Of a stretch of 64,000 bases of DNA, positions 27,502 to 39,172 are shown piece after piece. Each line of letters opens with the position of its first letter. Position 1 is the stretch's first letter. Source of the DNA: a virus (lineage: Duplodnaviria; Caudoviricetes); IMG/VR virus record IMGVR_UViG_3300005614_000001, positions 52,929 to 116,928 of that record. One strand, 5' to 3'. The translations under genes and the position numbers were made by a program. The notes under the pieces are model-generated. The model was not told the DNA's origin and ran no database searches. It worked only from the letters and a program-made list of their open reading frames with translations.

Positions 27502-30500
27502 CTAAAATAATTTGTTCTTTTTCTGAGTGAATAAGTTAAACCCGGAAGCAAATAAATTCCTTGCTCCTTGTTTCTTCTCTTTATTGAAATAATATTTGAA
27601 CCTTGGATCTGTTTCCAATGTCGTAACCTTCCCCATAGGAGCTAAGTGATCTGCCATAGCTATAGCAAGTGATGCGGCTACACAATTATGAGAAACTATA
27701 TCATTTACTGTATATGAATGATCTTCTTCTACTTCTATATTATAAACTTCTTCAGATGAGGAATAGACATCTATTGATTTTATAGGAATTATTATTCCTT
27801 CATCTATAACTCTATAGTTTTTTCTCTGAGATCTTTCCTTAAGATTTTTAAACTTCTTAGAACTACCTGGTATAGAATTCAATATTTTATTTATACCTTC
27901 TATATTTTGAATGTCCAGTCTATACTGTTCTTTTGAGTTTGGATTTTTCTGTTTATTAATATTTCCAGAACACCATATACCCTCGTCAAACATTAATCTC
28001 CTTATTTGTTTTATCAGATGTGTATATATACCAGATACCTCTATTGTTTCTCTGAAATTTATAGACCCTGGTGCCTTAGTTGATTTTTGATGACCATCTC
28101 CTTCTAAAAATCCTAATATTAATGGTAAAAGTCCTTTTGAGTTAAATAGAGGATCTTTTATAATTTTCTCCCCTCCCACTTTAATACTTATATTTTCATT
28201 TATTATATTATTAAATGTAGTGCAATTAAACTCTAAGTTGTAAGCAAATTTATCTTTCACCTTATATATTCTTGGGAGTTTTCTCTTTGATTTACATATA
28301 ATATTATCTTTTTTTAAGTGATTATAAGAGGAATATGTAATTGGAGAAAAATCATCCACTTCTTCTAAAAGAGATTTTATATATTCTGCTATATGCAACT
28401 GATTCCCCTGAAAAGTTATTCTTACAGTATTTTTATGTTTATGCCCATCAGATAAATACCATCCTAATATATATAAGTATCTCCAGTTTAAATTACACTT
28501 TTTTAAATCTTTTCTAAATGGAATTAAAAGATAATCATTCTTATTTATATCTTTTGCCTCTTTCCATTTGAGATCTCCTATTGTAAAATTTTTAAAGTAA
28601 TTTTTACCGTTACCTTTTTTTATCTCACTTATTAATAAAGGGTGATTTTCTGTACATGTAAATTCCTCAATACCTAATGGTTTAATTATATATTTATCTT
28701 TTTTGGAAACAGAGTTAAAAATATCCGTCACATTTTTGTATTTACCAGTATGTGTTAATACTCTATCCCCTATTTTTAAATTTTCTATACATTTATATCC
28801 ATCAATACAAAGAACTTTTGCCCCCTTTGTAAAACATCTATCAAAGTTCCCTGTATCATTAAACTTAATAATCTCTTCCAGGAGCATTGCATCCAATACC
28901 CTGGTTACACCAGTAACTTCTTTTATAATAGAACCTTCTTCATCCTTTTCCTGGTATATTACCTGGTCCAGGTATCTCTTTAAGCAATTATTTAAATGAT
29001 CTATTATCTTCTGTGATGAACGATGTACTCCATATTCCCTGGTAACTTGTGAATGAGGAACTACTTCTTTCAACCATTCAGGTTGACGTTCCAGGTATCT
29101 TGCATCCCCTTTTGCCTTCATATAATCTATGAAAGATATTTCATCATTTTCACATAGAGTCCTGGCATTATAAAATTTTATAAGTAATCTTGCCTGTTCA
29201 TGCCAGGTATCTTTACTATCTGGTCTTGCTACATATGAGGCTACAAACATATCCTGGAACTTATCTCCGGCTATATCATGCATTCTCTTATAAATATATA
29301 CTGCCCCAAGAGAGTCTGAATACTCTGACTTTCCCTGTCTATAAGGATCTACTCCGGCAACATACAGGCCAAATGGAGGGTTCTGCATTGGCATCTCATA
29401 TATTACTATTGGAGCATTCTTATTATCATTTGGTTTTGTTGGGAAGGAACCAACCGGGAGAGCATCTGTATGTTCAAAGATTATCTTCTCCCCATCATGT
29501 GCCAATAATACCGGGATGCCAGTTCTTCCATTTGCAAATATCCTGCCCTTCTGTGCAAGTGCTGCCTGGGTATTGAATATATTAAAAGATGCTGTAAGAA
29601 AACATTCGTCTGGAGTATAAGGATAATACATTACAGCCTTAAGATATGCCTCTTGGTCATTGGCATCTTTAGCTGTTTTACGTTCCTCATCTATTATCTT
29701 CTTAGCTTTTTCAAGATCACTCTTCTGAAAGTTAAGATTATAAAGTTCACTTTCTTCCGGGATATCTATTTGTTTTTCTTCCTTTAACCATTCCCCAAGC
29801 TTACAGTCTACTTTTGCCTCCATTCTATAACTACCTGGAAGGAATAATCCATACTTCTTTTTCTCTTCTCCAAACTCTACTGCTAAGAAATTGTAAGCTT
29901 CTGGATTATAAAATATCTTTTCTGCATCACTTCCTTTTTCAAATGCACCACCTGTACCAACCAGTAGGGGTGAGCATCTCCACCCATATGGAGATGTGAA
30001 CGCCGGGATGGCTGCCTCAAGACATCGTAGGAAAAGAAACTTTCCTATTTCATCAATTATGAATTCAGTTGCAGTAACCCCTGCTACTGCTTCTGTATTT
30101 TTACCATCATCTAAGTTACGTGGTAAAATAGTGGACCATGGTATACGATTGCCACTTTTATCTTTTATTCCTAAAGTAACCTGTCTCTTCCAATCATTTT
30201 CTATTCTACCCCATTTAAAATATGGGTGAACATTATTTAATCCTTTATCTATCTTATCAGCTATAAGTTTTAAATCCTTATCGTTACCTGCAGAGATAAT
30301 ACTTTCAGACCCCTCAAGTATTGTAGCTGCTCTCCCTATAATGGATGATTCAATCTCACTTTTGGAAAATCTTCGACTACCTACAGCGCACAACCCCTTT
30401 TTCTCTCTCCTGGCTTTTAACCTATATTCTGCAAGTTGCCATTCATTGTCTCTGAGAAGGGGCTTTCCTAATATTCTTTTTATGAACCCTGTATTTTTAT

Positions 30501-30693
30501 TCTCAAGATCCATATGTATATTCCAATGATTGGTATGCCAGTATAACCATCCATCTATGTACACTCCATTTACAAAGAATCCATTTTCTATTTTGTCTAT
30601 TTCATTCTGAAAAAAGGCATCATACTCCTCTGACTTTTCATCAGGGATGGATTTCATATTTATAAAGAACTCTTGTGTAGTTGTAAAGTCCAA
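27502..30693 (-). CDS. terL: Terminase large subunit containing an intein
   Basis: GSRRFSKS Walker A, FIIDEIGK Walker B, GTGG coupling motif, AGVDPY nuclease motif, NFDR; about 679 aa after splicing. Confidence 0.92.
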   Translation of the reverse strand: MDFTTTQEFFINMKSIPDEKSEEYDAFFQNEIDKIENGFFVNGVYIDGWLYWHTNHWNIHMDLENKNTGFIKRILGKPLLRDNEWQLAEYRLKARREKKGLCAVGSRRFSKSEIESSIIGRAATILEGSESIISAGNDKDLKLIADKIDKGLNNVHPYFKWGRIENDWKRQVTLGIKDKSGNRIPWSTILPRNLDDGKNTEAVAGVTATEFIIDEIGKFLFLRCLEAAIPAFTSPYGWRCSPLLVGTGGAFEKGSDAEKIFYNPEAYNFLAVEFGEEKKKYGLFLPGSYRMEAKVDCKLGEWLKEEKQIDIPEESELYNLNFQKSDLEKAKKIIDEERKTAKDANDQEAYLKAVMYYPYTPDECFLTASFNIFNTQAALAQKGRIFANGRTGIPVLLAHDGEKIIFEHTDALPVGSFPTKPNDNKNAPIVIYEMPMQNPPFGLYVAGVDPYRQGKSEYSDSLGAVYIYKRMHDIAGDKFQDMFVASYVARPDSKDTWHEQARLLIKFYNARTLCENDEISFIDYMKAKGDARYLERQPEWLKEVVPHSQVTREYGVHRSSQKIIDHLNNCLKRYLDQVIYQEKDEEGSIIKEVTGVTRVLDAMLLEEIIKFNDTGNFDRCFTKGAKVLCIDGYKCIENLKIGDRVLTHTGKYKNVTDIFNSVSKKDKYIIKPLGIEEFTCTENHPLLISEIKKGNGKNYFKNFTIGDLKWKEAKDINKNDYLLIPFRKDLKKCNLNWRYLYILGWYLSDGHKHKNTVRITFQGNQLHIAEYIKSLLEEVDDFSPITYSSYNHLKKDNIICKSKRKLPRIYKVKDKFAYNLEFNCTTFNNIINENISIKVGGEKIIKDPLFNSKGLLPLILGFLEGDGHQKSTKAPGSINFRETIEVSGIYTHLIKQIRRLMFDEGIWCSGNINKQKNPNSKEQYRLDIQNIEGINKILNSIPGSSKKFKNLKERSQRKNYRVIDEGIIIPIKSIDVYSSSEEVYNIEVEEDHSYTVNDIVSHNCVAASLAIAMADHLAPMGKVTTLETDPRFKYYFNKEKKQGARNLFASGFNLFTQKKNKLF
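27685..28836 (-). mobile_element. 384-aa intein with LAGLIDADG homing endonuclease in TerL
   Basis: NFDR|CFTKGAKV ... CTENHP (block B) ... LGWYLSDG / LGFLEGDG (LAGLIDADG) ... VYNIEVEEDHSY..VSHN|C; very AT-rich. Confidence 0.92.
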
Positions 30694-33137: not shown

Positions 33138-33225
33138 ACAAAAGTACTAATAAATATAGGAAATATATATGTGTTTATTACTTTATTTCCATAAGTAATG
33201 CTATATCATAGCAAAGTTTTTCATC

Positions 33226-33579
33226 CTATCGTGGAGAAACAGGGGTTTCTGTAACCAATTTATTATACTTCTCCAGCTCCTTTTTGAACTTATCAAATGT
33301 ACAGTTTAGGTTAAGACTTTCCCCAGTAGTAAGAGTTACCTGTACCTGGTTCATCTTGGGATTCTCAAGGTTATAGTGGGATTCTTCCAGGCTATAGCAC
33401 TCTGAGAAGTTAGATATTTCTTCCGGATTGATGGCTATCTTAGATATTATTGGGATTGGGGTATGTTCAGGGCCAGGGGCTGGAAATTCACTTTCAAACT
33501 GCTTTTCCAGTTCACGCTGATACTCAGCCATTTCCTTTGCATTGTATATATTAGTCGTAAACTCTATGAATCTTTTCAT
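33226..33579 (-). CDS. Hypothetical protein
   Basis: 117 aa with its own promoter at 33602-33632. Confidence 0.55.
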   Translation of the reverse strand: MKRFIEFTTNIYNAKEMAEYQRELEKQFESEFPAPGPEHTPIPIISKIAINPEEISNFSECYSLEESHYNLENPKMNQVQVTLTTGESLNLNCTFDKFKKELEKYNKLVTETPVSPR

Positions 33580-33601
33580 TAATTATACATCATTTATTAT
33601 A

Positions 33602-33632
33602 CAAATATATAACTTATTATGTTATTTCCAAA
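33602..33632 (-). promoter_or_regulatory. Bacteroidota promoter TTTG-N19-TATATTTG
   Basis: CAAATATA 33602-33609 and CAAA 33629-33632 on +. Confidence 0.65.
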
Positions 33633-33654
33633 TATATTTTATATTATTTTTTAT

Positions 33655-33888
33655 TTATAAATCTAACCTGGCTCTTTCTCCTTTCTCTTCACTGCCCCTG
33701 AATGCTTTCTTAATTAAATATTTCCCCCCATTCTGTAAGTTTACCAGAACTTCTCCGCTCTGTAGTACATTATCTTTCATACCTGGATAGATATCTTCAT
33801 GTGCTATATCATCTACAAAAGATTGAAACTCAAGTTCATCCAGGTAATATATTCCTTCCGGGCGATTGTATAGATCTTCTAATTTCAT
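33655..33888 (-). CDS. Hypothetical protein (MKLEDLY family)
   Basis: 77 aa; paralogue immediately upstream. Confidence 0.55.
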   Translation of the reverse strand: MKLEDLYNRPEGIYYLDELEFQSFVDDIAHEDIYPGMKDNVLQSGEVLVNLQNGGKYLIKKAFRGSEEKGERARLDL

Positions 33889-34092
33889 GGTATAAATTTT
33901 AATTTGTAGATGCGTCCCATATAAGATTCTGTTTTAAGCACCCTGTCTTTTTTTTACTTTATCTATAAGTTTATTTATAAATTCTGAATGTATATCAGAT
34001 TCATTTATTAAATCTGCAAAGAACTCTCTAAATGCAGTGTCATTAAAATAATATGTTCCTGGCTTACTTTTATACAAATCCTCTAATTTCAT
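33885..34092 (-). pseudogene. Frameshifted MKLEDLY paralogue (52 aa as sequenced, 33934-34092)
   Basis: MKLEDLYKSKPGTYYFND...; removing one base of the A8 run extends the ORF to an ATGA overlap with the start at 33888. Confidence 0.55.
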
Positions 34093-34164
34093 AATTATAG
34101 TTTTAAAAATAAAAGCTGATGTAGAAACACCAGCTCTGAATAGTCTATTTGAAATGAAACAATA

Positions 34165-34518
34165 TTAGTCTACTTTAATGACAAAAGATGACTCTACATT
34201 ATGTACCCTTGTGAACCAATTCCCAATATCTCCATAAGCTGGATCGTAGGGTTTTGATATCTCTACATCATAGGATACACAGCATTCAGAAAAGTGGACC
34301 TTAATAACCTTACAGTCTGTAATCTGTTGATCTCCAAACTTTAAAATCACTTCATCTCCAACCTGATGAGCTGCCGGAAGAAGTCTTAAGGTAATCATTT
34401 TCTCCTTAAAGAACTCGGCACCTTTAAGAAATTCTCCATCATGTAGTAGTGAAACAGAATCCATTAGATTATCTAATGCATTATCCCACATCCTTTTTTC
34501 TCGTTTTACTTTTGACAT
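34165..34518 (-). CDS. Hypothetical protein with SH3/Tudor-like C-terminal domain
   Basis: HQVGDEVIL...CKVIKVHF...YDV pattern. Confidence 0.5.
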   Translation of the reverse strand: MSKVKREKRMWDNALDNLMDSVSLLHDGEFLKGAEFFKEKMITLRLLPAAHQVGDEVILKFGDQQITDCKVIKVHFSECCVSYDVEISKPYDPAYGDIGNWFTRVHNVESSFVIKVD

Positions 34519-34559
34519 ATTGTTTATGTTCAGCTTACTCTGTCCCCAGTTTTTATATT

Positions 34560-34913
34560 TTAAACAGGTTTTACTATAATATCTCCATCATGTATAACAG
34601 GAGGATTGTATATATAATCTGTTACCTGAGTATCTACTATATTAGCTTTCTTTATCTCCAGTTCTTCCTTTGCTATCATCTCCCCTAATACATTATATGC
34701 CCATTTCAAGGCAGTAATGTCATAATTATTTATAGGGCGAATCTTTGTATTGCCACCTTCATCTTTATTGGCAAAACAGAATCCTCCAGTTGCTGGAATA
34801 TAAAGTCCAAACTTCTGCACCAGCTTATCCCGAACATCATCAGAATGTTCATAATCCAACTGTACTACAGGAAGGTTATCATAATCAACGTCAATCCTTA
34901 CTTTTGATTTCAT
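34560..34913 (-). CDS. Hypothetical protein, first gene of the minus-strand arm
   Basis: 117 aa downstream of the promoter at 34980-35010. Confidence 0.55.
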   Translation of the reverse strand: MKSKVRIDVDYDNLPVVQLDYEHSDDVRDKLVQKFGLYIPATGGFCFANKDEGGNTKIRPINNYDITALKWAYNVLGEMIAKEELEIKKANIVDTQVTDYIYNPPVIHDGDIIVKPV

Positions 34914-34979
34914 AAATGTTTGTTTTTAAATGTTTAAATAAATGAATAAATTATAGGCTTAATTAGTCACTATATATTA

Positions 34980-35010
34980 CAAAGATATACAATATATAAT
35001 ATCTTCCAAA
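34980..35010 (-). promoter_or_regulatory. Bacteroidota promoter TTTG-N19-TATCTTTG
   Basis: CAAAGATA 34980-34987 and CAAA 35007-35010. Confidence 0.7.
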
Positions 35011-35093
35011 TTTATTTTTTATTTTCTAATTTTTTTTCCAATTTTTAAAATCTTTTATATGGCTTTTAGAATACCTCTATTGAAGGTGGGCTT

Positions 35094-35123
35094 AAATTAA
35101 AACAGCCGCAGATTAGCGGCTGT
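35094..35123 (-). terminator. Intrinsic terminator (minus strand)
   Basis: Perfect 8-bp ACAGCCGC/GCGGCTGT stem followed on minus by TTTAATTT. Confidence 0.6.
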
Positions 35124-35150
35124 AAATGTTTTAGTCGTCGGCGGCTAAAG

Positions 35151-35216
35151 TGACAGTTGGTGTAAATAACACGCCATCCTTTGAAGATGGGGTTGTGGTT
35201 AAATCCACGCTGTCCT
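35151..35216 (+). tRNA. Atypical/degenerate tRNA-Gln(TTG)-like cloverleaf 1
   Basis: TGACAGT TG GTGT-AAATA-ACAC G CCATC-CTTTGAA-GATGG GGTT GTGG-TTAAAT-CCAC GCTGTCC T; lacks the D-loop GG and TTCG. Confidence 0.55.
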
Positions 35217-35223
35217 AAGTAAA

Positions 35224-35295
35224 CGACTGGTTGGTGTAACGTCAACATGTTGCCCCTTGAAGGCAAAGTAGCTGGTTAAACTCCAGCACCGTCCA
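35224..35295 (+). tRNA. Atypical/degenerate tRNA-Gln(TTG)-like cloverleaf 2
   Basis: GACTGGT TG GTGT-AACGTCA-ACAT G TTGCC-CCTTGAA-GGCAA AGTA GCTGG-TTAAACT-CCAGC ACCGTCCA; bulged acceptor stem, C33. Confidence 0.55.
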
Positions 35296-35302
35296 ATTTT
35301 TA

Positions 35303-35333
35303 CAAATATACAAAGGGGGTATGACACTACAAA
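35303..35333 (-). promoter_or_regulatory. Bacteroidota promoter TTTG-N19-TATATTTG pointing antisense into the tRNA-like pair
   Basis: CAAATATA 35303-35310 and CAAA 35330-35333. Confidence 0.65.
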
Positions 35334-35473
35334 ATTTTTTTCTATTTTCTGAAAACTTTTATATACATAAAACATCTTACTACTCCTTCCACAACCCCCT
35401 CTCATGTTTAGGGAGGTGCCAGTCACCCCGCCTATTGAATAATCATTGTTTAACATTTAAAATTGAAAAAGCT

Positions 35474-35833
35474 ATGAATTTGGCTAAAGTAACAAAAGTT
35501 GGAGAAAAGGCATGTTTTGACATTGCTGGAAATCGCATTGCCCTTGGAGGGTTAACAGACATTAAAGTGGGTTCTTATGTTGCCTACCGGGAGCAGACAG
35601 TTACCAACAGGACTAATCCTGAGACTAGTAAGTTAGAAGAGCTGGCTCCTGAAGCTTACTGGGTGAATAAGATTGCTACAGCGGTGTTTAGTGACCGTAC
35701 AGAGGCTATCCTGGCAGTTAATGAAGGCAGTATCATGGCTGCTGAATCTAAGCTGGTAATTGCCCAGCAGGCTGCTAAGATTGCACAGTCTTATGACATT
35801 CCTGCATCTGTGCTGGAATCTTTGGGCATGTAA
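35474..35833 (+). CDS. First early-arm protein (119 aa, start MNLAKVTK)
   Basis: The track ORF starts at 35321, but an AT-rich leader precedes the ATG at 35474; higher GC than neighbours; followed by a terminator. Confidence 0.6.
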   Translation: MNLAKVTKVGEKACFDIAGNRIALGGLTDIKVGSYVAYREQTVTNRTNPETSKLEELAPEAYWVNKIATAVFSDRTEAILAVNEGSIMAAESKLVIAQQAAKIAQSYDIPASVLESLGM

Positions 35834-35856
35834 TGCTGATGGTTGATGAATTGAAT

Positions 35857-35895
35857 AGTGTGCTCTTCGTGATGGTGGAGCACACTTCTTCTTTT
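35857..35895 (+). terminator. Intrinsic terminator
   Basis: AGTGTGCTC...GAGCACACT followed by TCTTCTTTT. Confidence 0.6.
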
Positions 35896-35976
35896 GTTGA
35901 GGGTATATATTCTATAGTAATATATTCTATTATATTATAGTATATAATAAATAATAACTTGATAAGTGTAAAAATT

Positions 35977-36010
35977 AATAACAATTGTTAGTAAATAAAT
36001 AACAATTGTT
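35977..36010. repeat. Two direct copies of AATAACAATTGTT (palindromic core AACAATTGTT), 21-bp period
   Basis: 35977-35989 and 35998-36010, just upstream of TATATTTG (36034-36041) and the RepL-like gene. Confidence 0.7.
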
Positions 36011-36057
36011 TTCTTTTTGTCCTACATTATACATATATTTGCACAAAATAATATATA

Positions 36058-36480
36058 ATGAAAGATAAATCAACAAGATCTCCTAACATTAAGTCTTACC
36101 CTGAACATGAAAGTAACCCATTCCCTATGGATAACCTATTAGAGCAGCCTGATTATACTGTTCCTGGATTACATATAGGGGAGAAATGTGTTGCTTTTAG
36201 TAACAAGTATCCAAATGTTATGTACACCCTGGATAAGCCTGGGATGAAGGGGTTATTGTATATAACATCTAAATTAGTTATAGGGGTGCATGAAGTGTGT
36301 ATATCTCAGGTAGAATTCAACGAGTATGGTAAGTATAAACAATCTAATAGGTATGCTTACTATAAAGCTTTAGATCAGTTATTGGAGACTGGGGTTATTG
36401 CCAGGAAGAAGAATTATAATAATTGCTTCTTTGTGAACCCTGAAGTGATGCAGGCTACTGTTGAATTCTTCTATAAATAA
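36058..36480 (+). CDS. RepL-like winged-helix replication/regulatory protein
   Basis: YYKALDQLLETGVIARK...FFVNP C-terminal motif; N-terminal ESNPF. Confidence 0.65.
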   Translation: MKDKSTRSPNIKSYPEHESNPFPMDNLLEQPDYTVPGLHIGEKCVAFSNKYPNVMYTLDKPGMKGLLYITSKLVIGVHEVCISQVEFNEYGKYKQSNRYAYYKALDQLLETGVIARKKNYNNCFFVNPEVMQATVEFFYK

Positions 36481-36491
36481 CTCCTAATTAC

Positions 36492-36800
36492 ATGAAAGAT
36501 ACTGATATATATGGTATTATTTATGCTTGGGTTATGAAGAGTAAAGAAATTGAAATTGGCCCTAAAGCACTGTATGCTCTTCTCTGTACCTATAGAGAGG
36601 CATCTAATAATACCTGTTTCCCTGGAGATAGTAAGCTTGCTGAACAGCTAATGGTTGACATTAGGACTATCAGGAGATATATGCTTGCACTTCAACAAGC
36701 CAGAATAATAGAGAGAATTACTCTATTTGATCCTCACTCAGGGAAGAAAAAAAGAACCATTCTCCTTACCGATATAGTGAAATTTAAGGAAAAAGCATAG
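36492..36800 (+). CDS. HTH_36-type replication-initiator-like wHTH protein
   Basis: KALYALLCTY...TCFPGDSKLAEQLMVDIRTIRRYMLALQQARII. Confidence 0.75.
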   Translation: MKDTDIYGIIYAWVMKSKEIEIGPKALYALLCTYREASNNTCFPGDSKLAEQLMVDIRTIRRYMLALQQARIIERITLFDPHSGKKKRTILLTDIVKFKEKA

Positions 36801-36861
36801 GACATGTATGTCCTAATATATAGGACACAGGTGTCCTAAGGTATAGGACATGGGTGTCCTA
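36798..36861. repeat. Three 18-bp palindromes TAGGACA-N4-TGTCCTA at 23-bp period (iteron/operator array)
   Basis: 36798-36815, 36821-36838, 36844-36861. Confidence 0.9.
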
Positions 36862-37147
36862 TATAACATTACCATAATAACAATACAATAGAACAATACC
36901 AGGGAAAGTTTATCAAAATTTTGCAGACTGCAGGGAGCAATTTGCCTATCCCGGCAGTAAGTAGTTCCCAATAGCAGTAAATAATTATTGGTTCAAAGTA
37001 ATTCCCAACAGTCTATACTATCTGTAGGGATACTATAAGCGTCAATTCCTGGTAACTAATAAGAGATAATTACTACTATAGTATCAAAATACAACGCTTA
37101 TACTACCGGAGTAGATAGTATAGCACACAAATATTAACTTTTAGTTA

Positions 37148-37165
37148 ATGTTCCACGTGGAACAT
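37148..37165. promoter_or_regulatory. parS: parS centromere-like site
   Basis: Perfect palindrome ATGTTCCACGTGGAACAT; the core TGTTCCACGTGGAACA is the symmetric form of the bacterial chromosomal parS consensus TGTTNCACGTGAAACA. Confidence 0.85.
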
Positions 37166-37318
37166 AGTAAATTTATTCCATTTGTAGGTATTAAAAGAGC
37201 TGAATACTACGTATATAGTCTGAAATCAAACTAATTGAGTAGTTAAATAGCTACGGGTACTGATATAGTATAGCATTAACAACATATTTTTATATATTTA
37301 CACTTAAAATCAATTATT

Positions 37319-37540
37319 ATGGTACTTATAGCTATACTGCTATCTTTGGGGGTTGTTTCTCTAAATCTGATAGCTTATTATATATTGAAGAAAACTACAT
37401 CAATGTATACATTCAGGCAGTATATCATAGTGATCTGGAGTGGAGATTATGAAATCCTTTTAGTTTTGAATATGTTTCTTATTTCAGCACTCTTTATCTC
37501 TTTTGCAGGTTGTGTACATTTACTATTATATCCACAATAA
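37319..37540 (+). CDS. Small membrane protein
   Basis: 73 aa with two hydrophobic segments. Confidence 0.5.
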   Translation: MVLIAILLSLGVVSLNLIAYYILKKTTSMYTFRQYIIVIWSGDYEILLVLNMFLISALFISFAGCVHLLLYPQ

Positions 37541-37575
37541 AATCATTCATTTAACCACTTAATACATAAAATGTC

Positions 37576-37893
37576 ATGGAAAAACTACCAATAAAATTCA
37601 AAGAAAAATGGATAGCTGCTTTAAGGAGTGGTGAATACAAACAAGGAAAATTCACTATGTATGACTCAATAACACAAACATATTGTTGTTTAGGAGTTGC
37701 TGAAATAGTGGCTGGTAATAACATAGAAACAATTGGAAAAACATATTCTCCGAGGAGGTTAAATCGTAAATCAAAAGTTCCCGAATTACTAAAATCTACT
37801 ACATCAAGCATATCAGATATACTTATGGGCATGAATGATAGTAAAGATAAAACATTCAATGAAATAGCTGATTGGATAGAAGAAAACCTATAA
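37576..37893 (+). CDS. Early protein, W..ALRSG.Y.Q / CCLGV family (copy 1)
   Basis: KWIAALRSGEYKQG...YCCLGV...MND....F.EIADWIE. Confidence 0.7.
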   Translation: MEKLPIKFKEKWIAALRSGEYKQGKFTMYDSITQTYCCLGVAEIVAGNNIETIGKTYSPRRLNRKSKVPELLKSTTSSISDILMGMNDSKDKTFNEIADWIEENL

Positions 37894-37945
37894 TAACTAC
37901 TTTTTACTATTAATTACATACTTTTAACAACTAAAACTAATTTAT

Positions 37946-38233
37946 ATGGCTAATTATAGAATGATGAAGGTTTTTGATTGCACAGAAATGCCTAAAGAAG
38001 TAAGGAAGGTATTTTTTGAGACATTTCAAAAAGGTAATGATGTATTGGTGGAAACCTATTGCCATGAATCTCGTAAACCATTTGACGAATATACAGGGGG
38101 AGAGATTATTCATGAAGAGATAGACGACGGCATTAAGTACGTTAGGGAGAGAGGAGATGATATAATAAGTGATTGGCTATTTGATAATGGTGCAGAAATA
38201 GAAGAGGAAGTAATTATATCACATTGGTGGTAG
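37946..38233 (+). CDS. Hypothetical early protein
   Basis: 95 aa, acidic. Confidence 0.6.
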   Translation: MANYRMMKVFDCTEMPKEVRKVFFETFQKGNDVLVETYCHESRKPFDEYTGGEIIHEEIDDGIKYVRERGDDIISDWLFDNGAEIEEEVIISHWW

Positions 38234-38267
38234 AAATCAACAAATTAACAACTAAAAACATTTATTT

Positions 38268-38603
38268 ATGAAACAGAAAGCAAATAAATTACCAAAAAGG
38301 TTTAAAGAAAGATGGGTAAAGGCTCTCAGAAGTGGGAAGTACAAACAGACTGCTGGACGTCTATACAACAAAGAGGAAGATGGGTATTGCTGTCTGGGAG
38401 TAGCTTGTGCTATTTCAAGAGTCTCCAAGAACAATCTAAGAGGATATATACCTCGTAATATAAAAAAGAAACTTCCTGAAAGCTTTCCTAAAATATTATT
38501 GGAAACGGATGATATGGGAACTACAGTCAGAAAATTAATTAGAATGAATGATAATGGAAAAAGTTTCAAATACATTTCCTACTATATTGATCGGTATTTA
38601 TAA
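38268..38603 (+). CDS. Early protein, W..ALRSG.Y.Q / CCLGV family (copy 2)
   Basis: RWVKALRSGKYKQ...YCCLGV...MND..KSF. Confidence 0.7.
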   Translation: MKQKANKLPKRFKERWVKALRSGKYKQTAGRLYNKEEDGYCCLGVACAISRVSKNNLRGYIPRNIKKKLPESFPKILLETDDMGTTVRKLIRMNDNGKSFKYISYYIDRYL

Positions 38604-38623
38604 TAACCATAAAAATTTATATT

Positions 38624-39067
38624 ATGAATAAGAAACCAACATACCAGGAACAGTTTAATAAACTGACTGAGGCTTATATATCAAATAAAGTTGATCCATA
38701 CTATGGATGTGGCTGCTTTGTGGGCAATCTTTTAAATGGAAAGGGGAATTGGGAATTGGGAAGAGAGATGCTTATCTGGCATAGAAGTAAAGAATATGGC
38801 TATCAAATAAGTCCTAAAGGGTTACATCACACCCTTTTAGTACTTCAGGAAGAATGTGATAGTCTATACACTCCCAGAGAGATATTTGAACTGGAGAAGA
38901 AATTTCTCAGGTGTTATAATAGTCTGAAAGACCAGGATGGTGAAGAGGAAGCCTTATTTAAAGCATTTGAAACCACTCTTGACCTATTAAAAGAAATACA
39001 TATCTCTAAAGGAGAGATAATAGATACCATTCCGGTATTTACAAAGAGACAATTAATTCATCAATAA
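38624..39067 (+). CDS. Hypothetical early protein
   Basis: 147 aa; CGCFVGNL motif. Confidence 0.6.
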   Translation: MNKKPTYQEQFNKLTEAYISNKVDPYYGCGCFVGNLLNGKGNWELGREMLIWHRSKEYGYQISPKGLHHTLLVLQEECDSLYTPREIFELEKKFLRCYNSLKDQDGEEEALFKAFETTLDLLKEIHISKGEIIDTIPVFTKRQLIHQ

Positions 39068-39075
39068 TCTTGTTA

Positions 39076-39172
39076 AAAATACACCCTGTTTATGATTTAC
39101 TTAGATGGGCAGGCAAGTAAGCAAATCCACGGGCCCATATTCCTAGAGTGGTATATAAACAGGGTGTATTTT
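39076..39172 (+). ncRNA. Candidate structured RNA (three-way junction with kissing loops)
   Basis: 18-bp perfect closing stem, two internal hairpins, complementary loops ATGGGC/GCCCAT. Confidence 0.45.

What the first reader, a model, noticed from the sequence alone, without database searches (positions are those of the whole stretch)
35094..35333. Tandem degenerate tRNA-Gln-like pair transcribed apparently ANTISENSE: candidate anti-tRNA/decoy sRNA
Seen: two cloverleaves with TTG anticodons on + (35151-35216, 35224-35295) that lack the conserved D-loop GG and TTCG, one with C33 and a bulged acceptor stem. The only recognisable promoter (TTTG-N19-TATATTTG, 35303-35333) and the U-tailed terminator (35094-35123) are on the MINUS strand. 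They bracket the pair exactly, predicting a ~200-nt RNA starting near the complement of the terminal CCA. In that RNA both hairpin loops read UU-CAA-R (UUCAAAG, UUCAAGG), i.e. a Gln codon displayed in a loop, or a tRNA-Leu(CAA) anticodon-loop mimic. Inference: an sRNA that pairs with or sequesters host tRNA-Gln or its fragments, or a decoy for anticodon nucleases. Counter-evidence: G-U pairs favour folding of the + strand.
Basis: partly seen in the sequence, partly recalled or inferred. Interest (0 to 1): 0.78.

Follow-up and report, generated by a model that had tools for sequence, protein, structure and literature searches.

The report
Odd tandem phage tRNA-Gln genes
Two neighbouring, unusually shaped glutamine-tRNA genes sit at the head of the early genes of a crAss-like phage of Bacteroidota, with a host-type promoter pointing backwards across them. 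They look like altered but still maintained phage tRNAs, not a dedicated antisense "anti-tRNA".

Summary
Two cloverleaves with a UUG anticodon lie on the + strand (35151-35216, 35224-35295). They score 31.5 and 39.8 bits on Rfam tRNA (cut-off 29), but ARAGORN misses them at default settings. Both lack the D-loop GG and the T-loop UUCG, both have an irregular acceptor stem, and one has C33. A perfect Bacteroidota-type promoter (35333-35303) and a hairpin with a U-tail (35123-35094) bracket them on the minus strand.

All tRNA-specific signal is on the + strand. A tRNA-Gln model gives 28 bits on + and under 4 bits on minus.

The copies share the D arm, the 4-nt variable loop and the anticodon of Bacteroidota tRNA-Gln(UUG). 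They also share derived changes: U19 with A56, and C32/A37/A38. Six stem pairs differ on both sides between the copies yet still pair.

In related phages, all 13 tRNA hits located lie upstream of the terminase operon, on the strand opposite it.

The predicted antisense RNA matches Bacteroidota tRNA-Gln over at most 8-10 bases.

Best reading: maintained, non-canonical phage tRNA-Gln genes, possibly insensitive to a host nuclease. Antisense transcription probably happens, but its role is unknown. No expression data could be reached.

The parts
35151..35216 (+). tRNA-Gln(UUG)-like copy 1. It is 66 nt with a U1xC72 mismatch, a 5-nt D loop without G18/G19, a 4-bp T stem, a 6-nt T loop starting UUAAA, and the anticodon loop CUUUGAA.
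   Evidence: Rfam tRNA 31.5 bits. ARAGORN at relaxed threshold calls Gln(ttg) at 35150-35217. tRNA-Gln model R1 gives 28.4 bits. Segment table.
35224..35295 (+). tRNA-Gln(UUG)-like copy 2. It has a C1xC72 mismatch and a bulged U after C4; in the register 35225-35295 this reads as two mismatches instead. Its D loop has G18 and U19, its T loop starts UUAAAC, and its anticodon loop is CCUUGAA with C33.
   Evidence: Rfam tRNA 39.8 bits. ARAGORN at relaxed threshold. R1 gives 28.0 bits. Segment table.
35303..35333 (-). Promoter P1, of the Bacteroidota sigma-ABfr type: TTTG, 19 nt, TATATTTG. The predicted start is near 35298, 3 nt beyond the 3' end of copy 2. Its spacer is unusually C-rich.
   Evidence: Exact match. 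The G of the -7 box lies at -5 according to PMC6847099. Local scan.
35094..35123 (-). Hairpin of 8 bp (6 G-C) with a 6-nt loop, followed on the minus strand by TTTAATTT. It is a likely terminator or attenuator of the P1 transcript. On the + strand the U-run lies 5 nt away, so the fit is poorer.
   Evidence: Folds.
34980..35010 (-). Promoter P2, with the same consensus and the same 19-nt spacing and an AT-rich spacer. It lies directly upstream of the first leftward gene.
34560..34913 (-). First gene of the leftward block (117 aa). It has no family match and is unique to this phage lineage.
35474..35833 (+). First gene of the rightward block, presumed early (119 aa). The only homologue found is 76% identical. 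It shows a weak OB-fold/SSB-like structural resemblance.

Best explanation
The pair is a tandem duplication of a phage-borne tRNA-Gln(UUG) gene of the Bacteroidota type. It is read on the + strand at the head of the rightward gene block, which is presumed early and transcribed by the virion RNA polymerase.

Before the duplication the gene acquired an altered elbow: the tertiary pair G19-C56 became U19-A56. It also acquired an unpaired 1-72 position and a changed anticodon loop (C32, A37 and A38 in place of the invariant U32, G37 and U38), while keeping the UUG anticodon. After the duplication both copies kept the cloverleaf through compensatory stem changes, so they are under selection as folded RNAs.

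The most likely job is to supply glutamine-decoding capacity that a host tRNA-targeting defence recognises less well. This step is inferred.

The minus-strand promoter P1 is probably real. It would let host RNA polymerase transcribe about 205 nt antisense to the pair, up to the hairpin. I read this as one of several host-type promoters of the leftward accessory genes, or as transcriptional interference on the phage's own tRNA genes. I do not read it as an RNA aimed at host tRNA.
For: - Strand: both the generic and the Gln-specific covariance models hit only the + strand. The + strand cloverleaves are 2-3 kcal/mol better than their mirror images and use 3 G-U pairs against 1.
- Ancestry: eight Bacteroidota tRNA-Gln(UUG) genes and five from crAss-like and Flavobacterium phages share U8, G9, the GUGU D stem, A14, A15, a 4-nt variable loop and the UUG anticodon with both copies. 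Some also share G2-A3-C4 and G69-U70-C71.
- Maintenance: six stem pairs (27-43, 28-42, 29-41, 30-40, 50-64, 5-68) differ on both sides between the copies yet stay Watson-Crick, while the loops stay about 80% alike. The loss of G19 is matched by C56 to A in both copies (my reading of the table).
- Slot: in TerL relatives, all 13 tRNA hits located lie upstream of the terminase operon on the strand opposite it. The 12 that fall inside the TerL loci sit among mostly co-oriented small genes.
- Host: there is no Shine-Dalgarno signal, the leaders are A-rich, and sigma-ABfr-type promoters sit in intergenic sites of the leftward block.
- Transcription scheme: a 4019-aa protein carries DFDVD, matching the DFDxD motif of the crAss-like virion polymerase. 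In phi14:2 that enzyme transcribes early genes from promoters with no common motif.
- Precedent: phage tRNAs with anticodon-loop changes relative to the host are proposed to escape anticodon nucleases (PMC10264068).
Against: - The scores are 10-30 bits below canonical Bacteroidota or phage tRNA-Gln: 48.7-64.6 bits on Rfam and 85-95 bits on model R1 against 28 here.
- G18 is lost in copy 1. The T stem and T loop of copy 1 are shortened. The acceptor stems are irregular. Copy 2 has C33. Any of these could block processing, charging or ribosome use.
- The five other Bacteroidota phage tRNA-Gln genes examined keep host-like loops, so loop change is not a general habit of these phages.
- No nuclease that targets tRNA-Gln is known for the host, which is itself unknown.
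- No + strand promoter was identified.
- No relative carrying the pair could be obtained, so the only comparative evidence is between the two copies.
Confidence: 0.5

Rival explanations
1. The + strand RNAs are made but do not decode. They would be tRNA mimics that act as decoys or inhibitors for a tRNA-binding host factor (a nuclease, a modification enzyme or a synthetase), or as RNase P/Z processing signals at the start of the early transcript.
For: The elbow and acceptor defects and the low scores fit an RNA freed from ribosomal constraints. Relatives carry other tRNA-shaped genes with aberrant central regions in the same slot.
Against: A decoy for an anticodon nuclease should copy the host loop. 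Here positions 32, 37 and 38 are exactly the ones that changed, while the anticodon, the 7-nt loop and a permitted C32/A38 combination are kept.
Confidence: 0.17
2. The pair are decaying tRNA pseudogenes, relics of a once canonical phage tRNA-Gln, with no present function. P1 is simply a promoter that arose beside them, or one that predates them.
For: Both are missed by ARAGORN at default settings and score in the range usually treated as pseudogenes. The surrounding 33.2-39 kb zone turns over fast and is unique to this lineage. The closest TerL relative has no tRNA in that zone.
Against: Four of five anticodon-stem pairs, plus two others, changed on both sides and remain Watson-Crick in both copies. 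U8, A14, A21, G53, U54, U55, A58 and C61 are all retained, and the 19-56 change is compensated. Neutral decay would break the stems first.
Confidence: 0.18
3. The functional product is the roughly 205-nt minus-strand RNA. It would be an antisense or sponge RNA acting on host tRNA-Gln, on tRNA fragments, or on the phage's own tRNA transcripts.
For: There is an exact host-type promoter 7 nt beyond the tRNA 3' end and a hairpin with a U-tail just past copy 1, bracketing the pair. No such antisense box lies next to the tRNA genes of relatives. The minus RNA folds as well as the plus RNA (z -3.27 against -3.14).
Against: Complementarity to Bacteroidota tRNA-Gln is at most 10 nt. The loops fold shut. 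There is no minus-strand covariance signal. G-U pairs favour the + strand. The P1 spacer is atypically C-rich, and the U-tract is interrupted.
Confidence: 0.12

Closest known systems
Phage-encoded tRNAs with anticodon-loop substitutions proposed to resist host anticodon nucleases (van den Berg et al. 2023, PMC10264068; related work on T5-type tRNAs against retron and PARIS effectors, PMC11555353, PMC12409363)
   Same: The phage copies are of a host-type tRNA. The anticodon is kept while the flanking loop positions (32, 37, 38, and 33 in one copy) differ from every host-type sequence compared.
   Different: Those tRNAs are otherwise canonical and score as normal tRNAs. Here the elbow and the acceptor stem are also altered. 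No nuclease that targets tRNA-Gln is known for the host, and nothing has been tested.
Canonical tRNA-Gln(UUG) genes of crAss-like phages (cr8_1, cr130_1, ctcc615, bajarodcaudo virus 1) and of Flavobacterium phage immuto
   Same: Same isoacceptor, same D-arm signature and same 4-nt variable loop. They are carried by phages of the same host phylum.
   Different: They keep G18-G19, the UUCGA T loop and the host loop UUUUGGU, and score 48.7-62.9 bits. The pair here scores 31.5 and 39.8 bits.
tRNAs with reduced or altered D-loop/T-loop interaction, as in animal mitochondria (established knowledge, not tested here)
   Same: They lack the G18-G19 and T-Psi-C consensus yet function as cloverleaf adaptors.
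   Different: Those tRNAs work with co-evolved mitochondrial enzymes and ribosomes. A phage tRNA must use the bacterial host's machinery.
Abundant early non-coding RNAs from intergenic regions of the crAss-like phage phi14:2 (Drobysheva et al., bioRxiv 10.1101/2020.03.07.982082)
   Same: Non-coding transcripts from long intergenic regions at the start of the early region of a crAss-like phage of a Flavobacteriia host.
   Different: Those RNAs are not reported to be tRNA-like, and no sequence relation was tested.

Membership tests
tRNA (Rfam RF00005) | Covariance-model score at or above the gathering score of 29 bits | tested here: met
   39.8 and 31.5 bits, + strand only. Only copy 2 passes the filters in the whole-window scan.
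tRNA (Rfam RF00005) | Cloverleaf with a 5-bp anticodon stem and a 7-nt loop, plus U8, A14, A21, G53, U54, U55, A58 and C61 | tested here: met
tRNA (Rfam RF00005) | Elbow consensus: G18-G19 in the D loop and U54-U55-C56 in the T loop | tested here: not met
   C56 is A in both copies. G19 is U in both. G18 is absent in copy 1. A U19-A56 pair is possible, which is an inference.
tRNA (Rfam RF00005) | Regular 7-bp acceptor stem and U33 | tested here: not met
   Position 1-72 is mismatched in both copies. Copy 2 has a bulge or two mismatches, and has C33.
tRNA (Rfam RF00005) | Processing, CCA addition and aminoacylation | not testable with these tools
Bacteroidota-type tRNA-Gln(UUG) | D-arm signature (U8, G9, GUGU, A14, A15), 4-nt variable loop and UUG anticodon | tested here: met
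   These are invariant in 13 reference genes and present in both copies.
Bacteroidota-type tRNA-Gln(UUG) | Invariant anticodon loop (U32, U33, G37, U38) and a family-level model score | tested here: not met
   The loops read C32, A37 and A38. Model R1 gives 28 bits against 85-95 for members, and below the 31-52 bits of unrelated canonical tRNAs.
Bacteroidota sigma-ABfr promoter | -33 TTTG and -7 TAHHTTTG at about 19-21 nt spacing | tested here: met
   Exact at 35303-35333 on the minus strand. Consensus taken from PMC7366714 and PMC6847099.
Bacteroidota sigma-ABfr promoter | Mapped transcription start and AT-rich spacer | tested here: inconclusive
   The start cannot be mapped here. The P1 spacer contains a C5 run, unlike the AT-rich spacers of P2 and of the 33602 site.
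Intrinsic terminator | G+C-rich hairpin followed at once by a U-tract | tested here: met
   8-bp stem with 6 G-C pairs. The minus-strand tail TTTAATTT is interrupted. The + strand tail is offset.
Nuclease-insensitive phage tRNA | The host encodes a nuclease that cuts the corresponding host tRNA, and the phage copy resists it | not testable with these tools
   The host is unidentified. Only the loop differences were shown.

The most novel reading that the evidence does not exclude
The locus is a two-strand switch. Early in infection the virion polymerase makes two elbow-variant tRNA-Gln RNAs. Later the host polymerase fires P1 and makes a perfectly complementary ~205-nt RNA that removes or masks them. 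Alternatively, the + strand RNAs are non-decoding mimics that soak up a host tRNA-Gln-directed defence factor. Either would be a phage RNA device built from a tRNA gene rather than an ordinary tRNA.
Probability: 0.15. Interest if true: 0.7.

Novelty: new variant of a known kind. Interest (0 to 1): 0.42.

Why it matters
Phage tRNAs are now seen as counter-measures to host defences that deplete tRNA, but almost all known examples are canonical in shape. This pair keeps the anticodon and the cloverleaf while changing the elbow, the first acceptor pair and the anticodon-loop flanks together. If it is charged and used, it marks out how far a bacterial translation system tolerates such changes, and it hints at an unknown tRNA-Gln-directed defence in Bacteroidota. 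If it is not charged, it is a tRNA-derived regulatory or decoy RNA. The abutting antisense host-type promoter is a concrete, cheap target for testing.

Tried and rejected
Searches for relatives that carry the pair:
- Both flanking small proteins had no relatives in IMG/VR.
- P0004 has one 76%-identical homologue, on a 1183-nt Logan contig, and a near-identical sister genome of 116,989 bp.
- The one JGI contig found (L097, 97% identical) starts at 35313 and so misses the pair.
- DNA searches of phage records found nothing.
- An exact 20-mer and a gapped motif pattern gave only chance hits in viral contigs and genome contigs; the genome-contig hits were shown to lack a cloverleaf and the single viral hit lay in coding sequence.
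- blastn and tblastn against 80 TerL-relative loci showed that synteny ends at about 33137.

Thermodynamic folding does not separate the strands.

Readings rejected:
- Minus-strand small ORFs (35066-35266 and 35199-35456) have no PHROG match.
- An attP or integration relic is unlikely: both cloverleaves are complete, no ORF examined near the locus matched an integrase family (the rest of the genome was not screened), and the record has direct terminal repeats.
- A suppressor tRNA is excluded: the anticodon is UUG and the ORFs are long under table 11.
- No shared + strand intergenic motif was found.

The check was redone by reference.

Full report
WHAT IS THERE

The window is the last 64 kb of a 116,928-bp virus record with direct terminal repeats. 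Positions 34914-35473 form the divergent intergenic region.
- Leftward genes end at 34560-34913. They continue to an intein-bearing large terminase at 27502-30693.
- Rightward genes start at 35474.

In this gap Rfam's tRNA model hits the + strand twice: 35225-35295 at 39.8 bits and 35151-35216 at 31.5 bits, against a cut-off of 29. ARAGORN reports nothing at default settings, in the window or in the whole genome. At a relaxed threshold it calls both tRNA-Gln(ttg).

- no GG in either D loop;
- T loops that start UUAAA;
- C33 in copy 2;
- irregular acceptor stems.

PHAGE AND HOST

- The terminase is 55-75% identical to that of a large uncultured clade with 100-125 kb genomes.
- It is 43% identical to a Leptolyngbya phage, 32% to Cellulophaga phages phi4:1 and phi17:2, and about 27% to gut crAss-like phages.
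- A 4019-aa protein outside the window carries DFDVD. That matches the DFDxD motif of the crAss-like virion RNA polymerase. In phi14:2 this enzyme transcribes early genes from promoters without a common motif, while host polymerase transcribes middle and late genes.
- Start codons have no Shine-Dalgarno signal and have A-rich leaders peaking at -12 to -10 and at -3, as described for Flavobacterium johnsoniae (PMC6847099).
- Exact sigma-ABfr-type promoters sit in intergenic sites upstream of leftward genes.

I therefore take the host to be a Bacteroidota. This is an inference.

WHICH STRAND

- The generic tRNA model and a model built from 13 Bacteroidota-type tRNA-Gln(UUG) genes (R1) both hit only the + strand: 28.4 and 28.0 bits, against at most 3.9 bits on minus.
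- The + strand cloverleaves are more stable than their mirror images: -20.0 against -17.8 kcal/mol for copy 1, and -14.4 against -11.0 for copy 2. They use three G-U pairs against one.
- Free folding does not separate the strands.

ANCESTRY AND MAINTENANCE

I compared eight tRNA-Gln(UUG) genes from Bacteroidota genomes with five from phages: cr8_1, cr130_1, ctcc615, bajarodcaudo virus 1 and Flavobacterium phage immuto. They are nearly uniform.

Both copies here share with them:
- U8, G9, the GUGU D stem, A14 and A15;
- the 4-nt variable loop;
- the UUG anticodon.

With some of them the copies also share G2-A3-C4 and G69-U70-C71. This fixes the homologous register as 35151-35216 and 35224-35295.

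Both copies share these derived states:
- C32, A37 and A38, where U32 and U38 are invariant in all 13 and G37 is nearly invariant;
- A56 and A57 in place of C56 and G57;
- U in place of G19;
- C72, which leaves position 1-72 unpaired.

The G19-C56 tertiary pair thus became a possible U19-A56 pair.

Between the two copies, six stem pairs differ on both sides and remain Watson-Crick: four of the five anticodon-stem pairs, plus 50-64 and 5-68. The loops stay about 80% identical (my reading). Neutral decay would not do this, so the fold has been selected since the duplication.

Against this, the copies score far below family members: 28 bits against 85-95 on R1, and 31.5/39.8 bits against 48.7-64.6 on Rfam.

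RELATIVES

- Synteny with 80 TerL-relative loci stops at about 33137. The zone from 33.2 to 39 kb is private to this lineage, and the closest relative has no tRNA there.
- Even so, 12 of 40 relatives searched carry tRNA hits: canonical Arg(UCU) and Met, plus odd Leu-like ones. All 13 hits that I placed relative to the terminase gene lie upstream of the terminase operon on the strand opposite it. The 12 inside the TerL loci sit among mostly co-oriented small genes.
- The pair here occupies the same slot in the same orientation.
- Most of those tRNAs have no host-type -7 box within 250 nt upstream, and none has a full -33/-7 consensus. That includes the 72.8-bit tRNA-Arg, which has neither. The missing + strand promoter here is therefore not informative.

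THE ANTISENSE UNIT

- P1 (35333-35303, minus strand) matches TTTG-N19-TAHHTTTG exactly. With G at -5, the start falls near 35298.
- The hairpin at 35123-35102 is followed on the minus strand by TTTAATTT. This predicts an RNA of about 205 nt.
- A second consensus promoter, P2 (35010-34980), lies between the hairpin and the first leftward gene. P1 is therefore not needed for that gene.
- The P1 spacer has a C5 run, unlike the AT-rich spacers of P2 and of the 33602 site.
- No antisense box flanks the tRNA genes of relatives.

I judge P1 probably real, at about two in three.

The functions proposed for its RNA fare poorly:
- The longest identity of the template region to any of the 13 tRNA-Gln sequences is 8-10 nt, at positions 8-17.
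- On the minus strand both anticodon hairpins close into 7-bp stems with 3-nt loops.

MECHANISM AND RIVALS

Best reading (0.5): the pair are maintained, non-canonical phage tRNA-Gln genes transcribed with the early block. Their anticodon-loop flanks differ from the host type, in the way proposed for nuclease-insensitive phage tRNAs (PMC10264068). Charging and decoding are inferred, not shown.

Rivals:
- a non-decoding + strand mimic (0.17);
- relic pseudogenes (0.18);
- a functional antisense RNA (0.12).

Gln codons make up about 3.9% of phage codons, and CAG is unusually frequent in the late block. This neither supports nor excludes a codon-supply role.

LIMITS

- As a result, no relative carrying the pair and no RNA data could be examined. 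The only comparative evidence is between the two copies.

Noticed in passing
L087-L094 (relatives; tRNA hit starts at position 1501 of each locus): At least eight TerL relatives carry a conserved tRNA-shaped gene in the early block. It has a perfect acceptor stem, a class-II-like D arm and a canonical T arm. The region between the D and T arms varies greatly in sequence and length, giving totals of 73-158 nt, and several have no clear anticodon loop. It may be tRNA-Leu with insertions or introns, or an anticodon-less tRNA-like RNA family. The window's own genome has no copy.
   Followed up: partly
window 27502-30693 (-): The large terminase gene is interrupted by an intein with Hint and LAGLIDADG domains (residues about 620-1003). 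Some relatives have inteins and others do not.
   Followed up: no
window 33200-39100: This zone of small genes on both sides of the divergent region has no counterpart even in the closest TerL relative (75% identical). It holds three exact Bacteroidota-type promoters with identical 19-nt spacing, all leftward (33602, 34980, 35303).
   Followed up: partly
window 35313-35956 and L097: A JGI metagenome contig is 97% identical over these 644 nt and then unrelated. The 76%-identical homologue of the first rightward protein has an identical N-terminal 41 residues. Both point to mosaic exchange in this region.
   Followed up: no
window 35104-35146: The 3' arm of the hairpin (GCGGCU, 35117-35122) recurs at 35141-35146. 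The 5' arm (35104-35109) could therefore pair with either copy. On the minus strand this would compete with the terminator-like hairpin, which suggests a possible attenuator. Read from the sequence only.
   Followed up: no
genome 38683-50742 (-), outside the window (L099): A 4019-aa protein has a DFDVD motif at residue 3001, a candidate crAss-like virion RNA polymerase. Its only PHROG match is at the extreme C-terminus.
   Followed up: partly
window 35474-35833 (+): The first rightward protein weakly resembles OB-fold, SSB-like and DUF3127 models (TM 0.42-0.50, low-confidence model).
   Followed up: no
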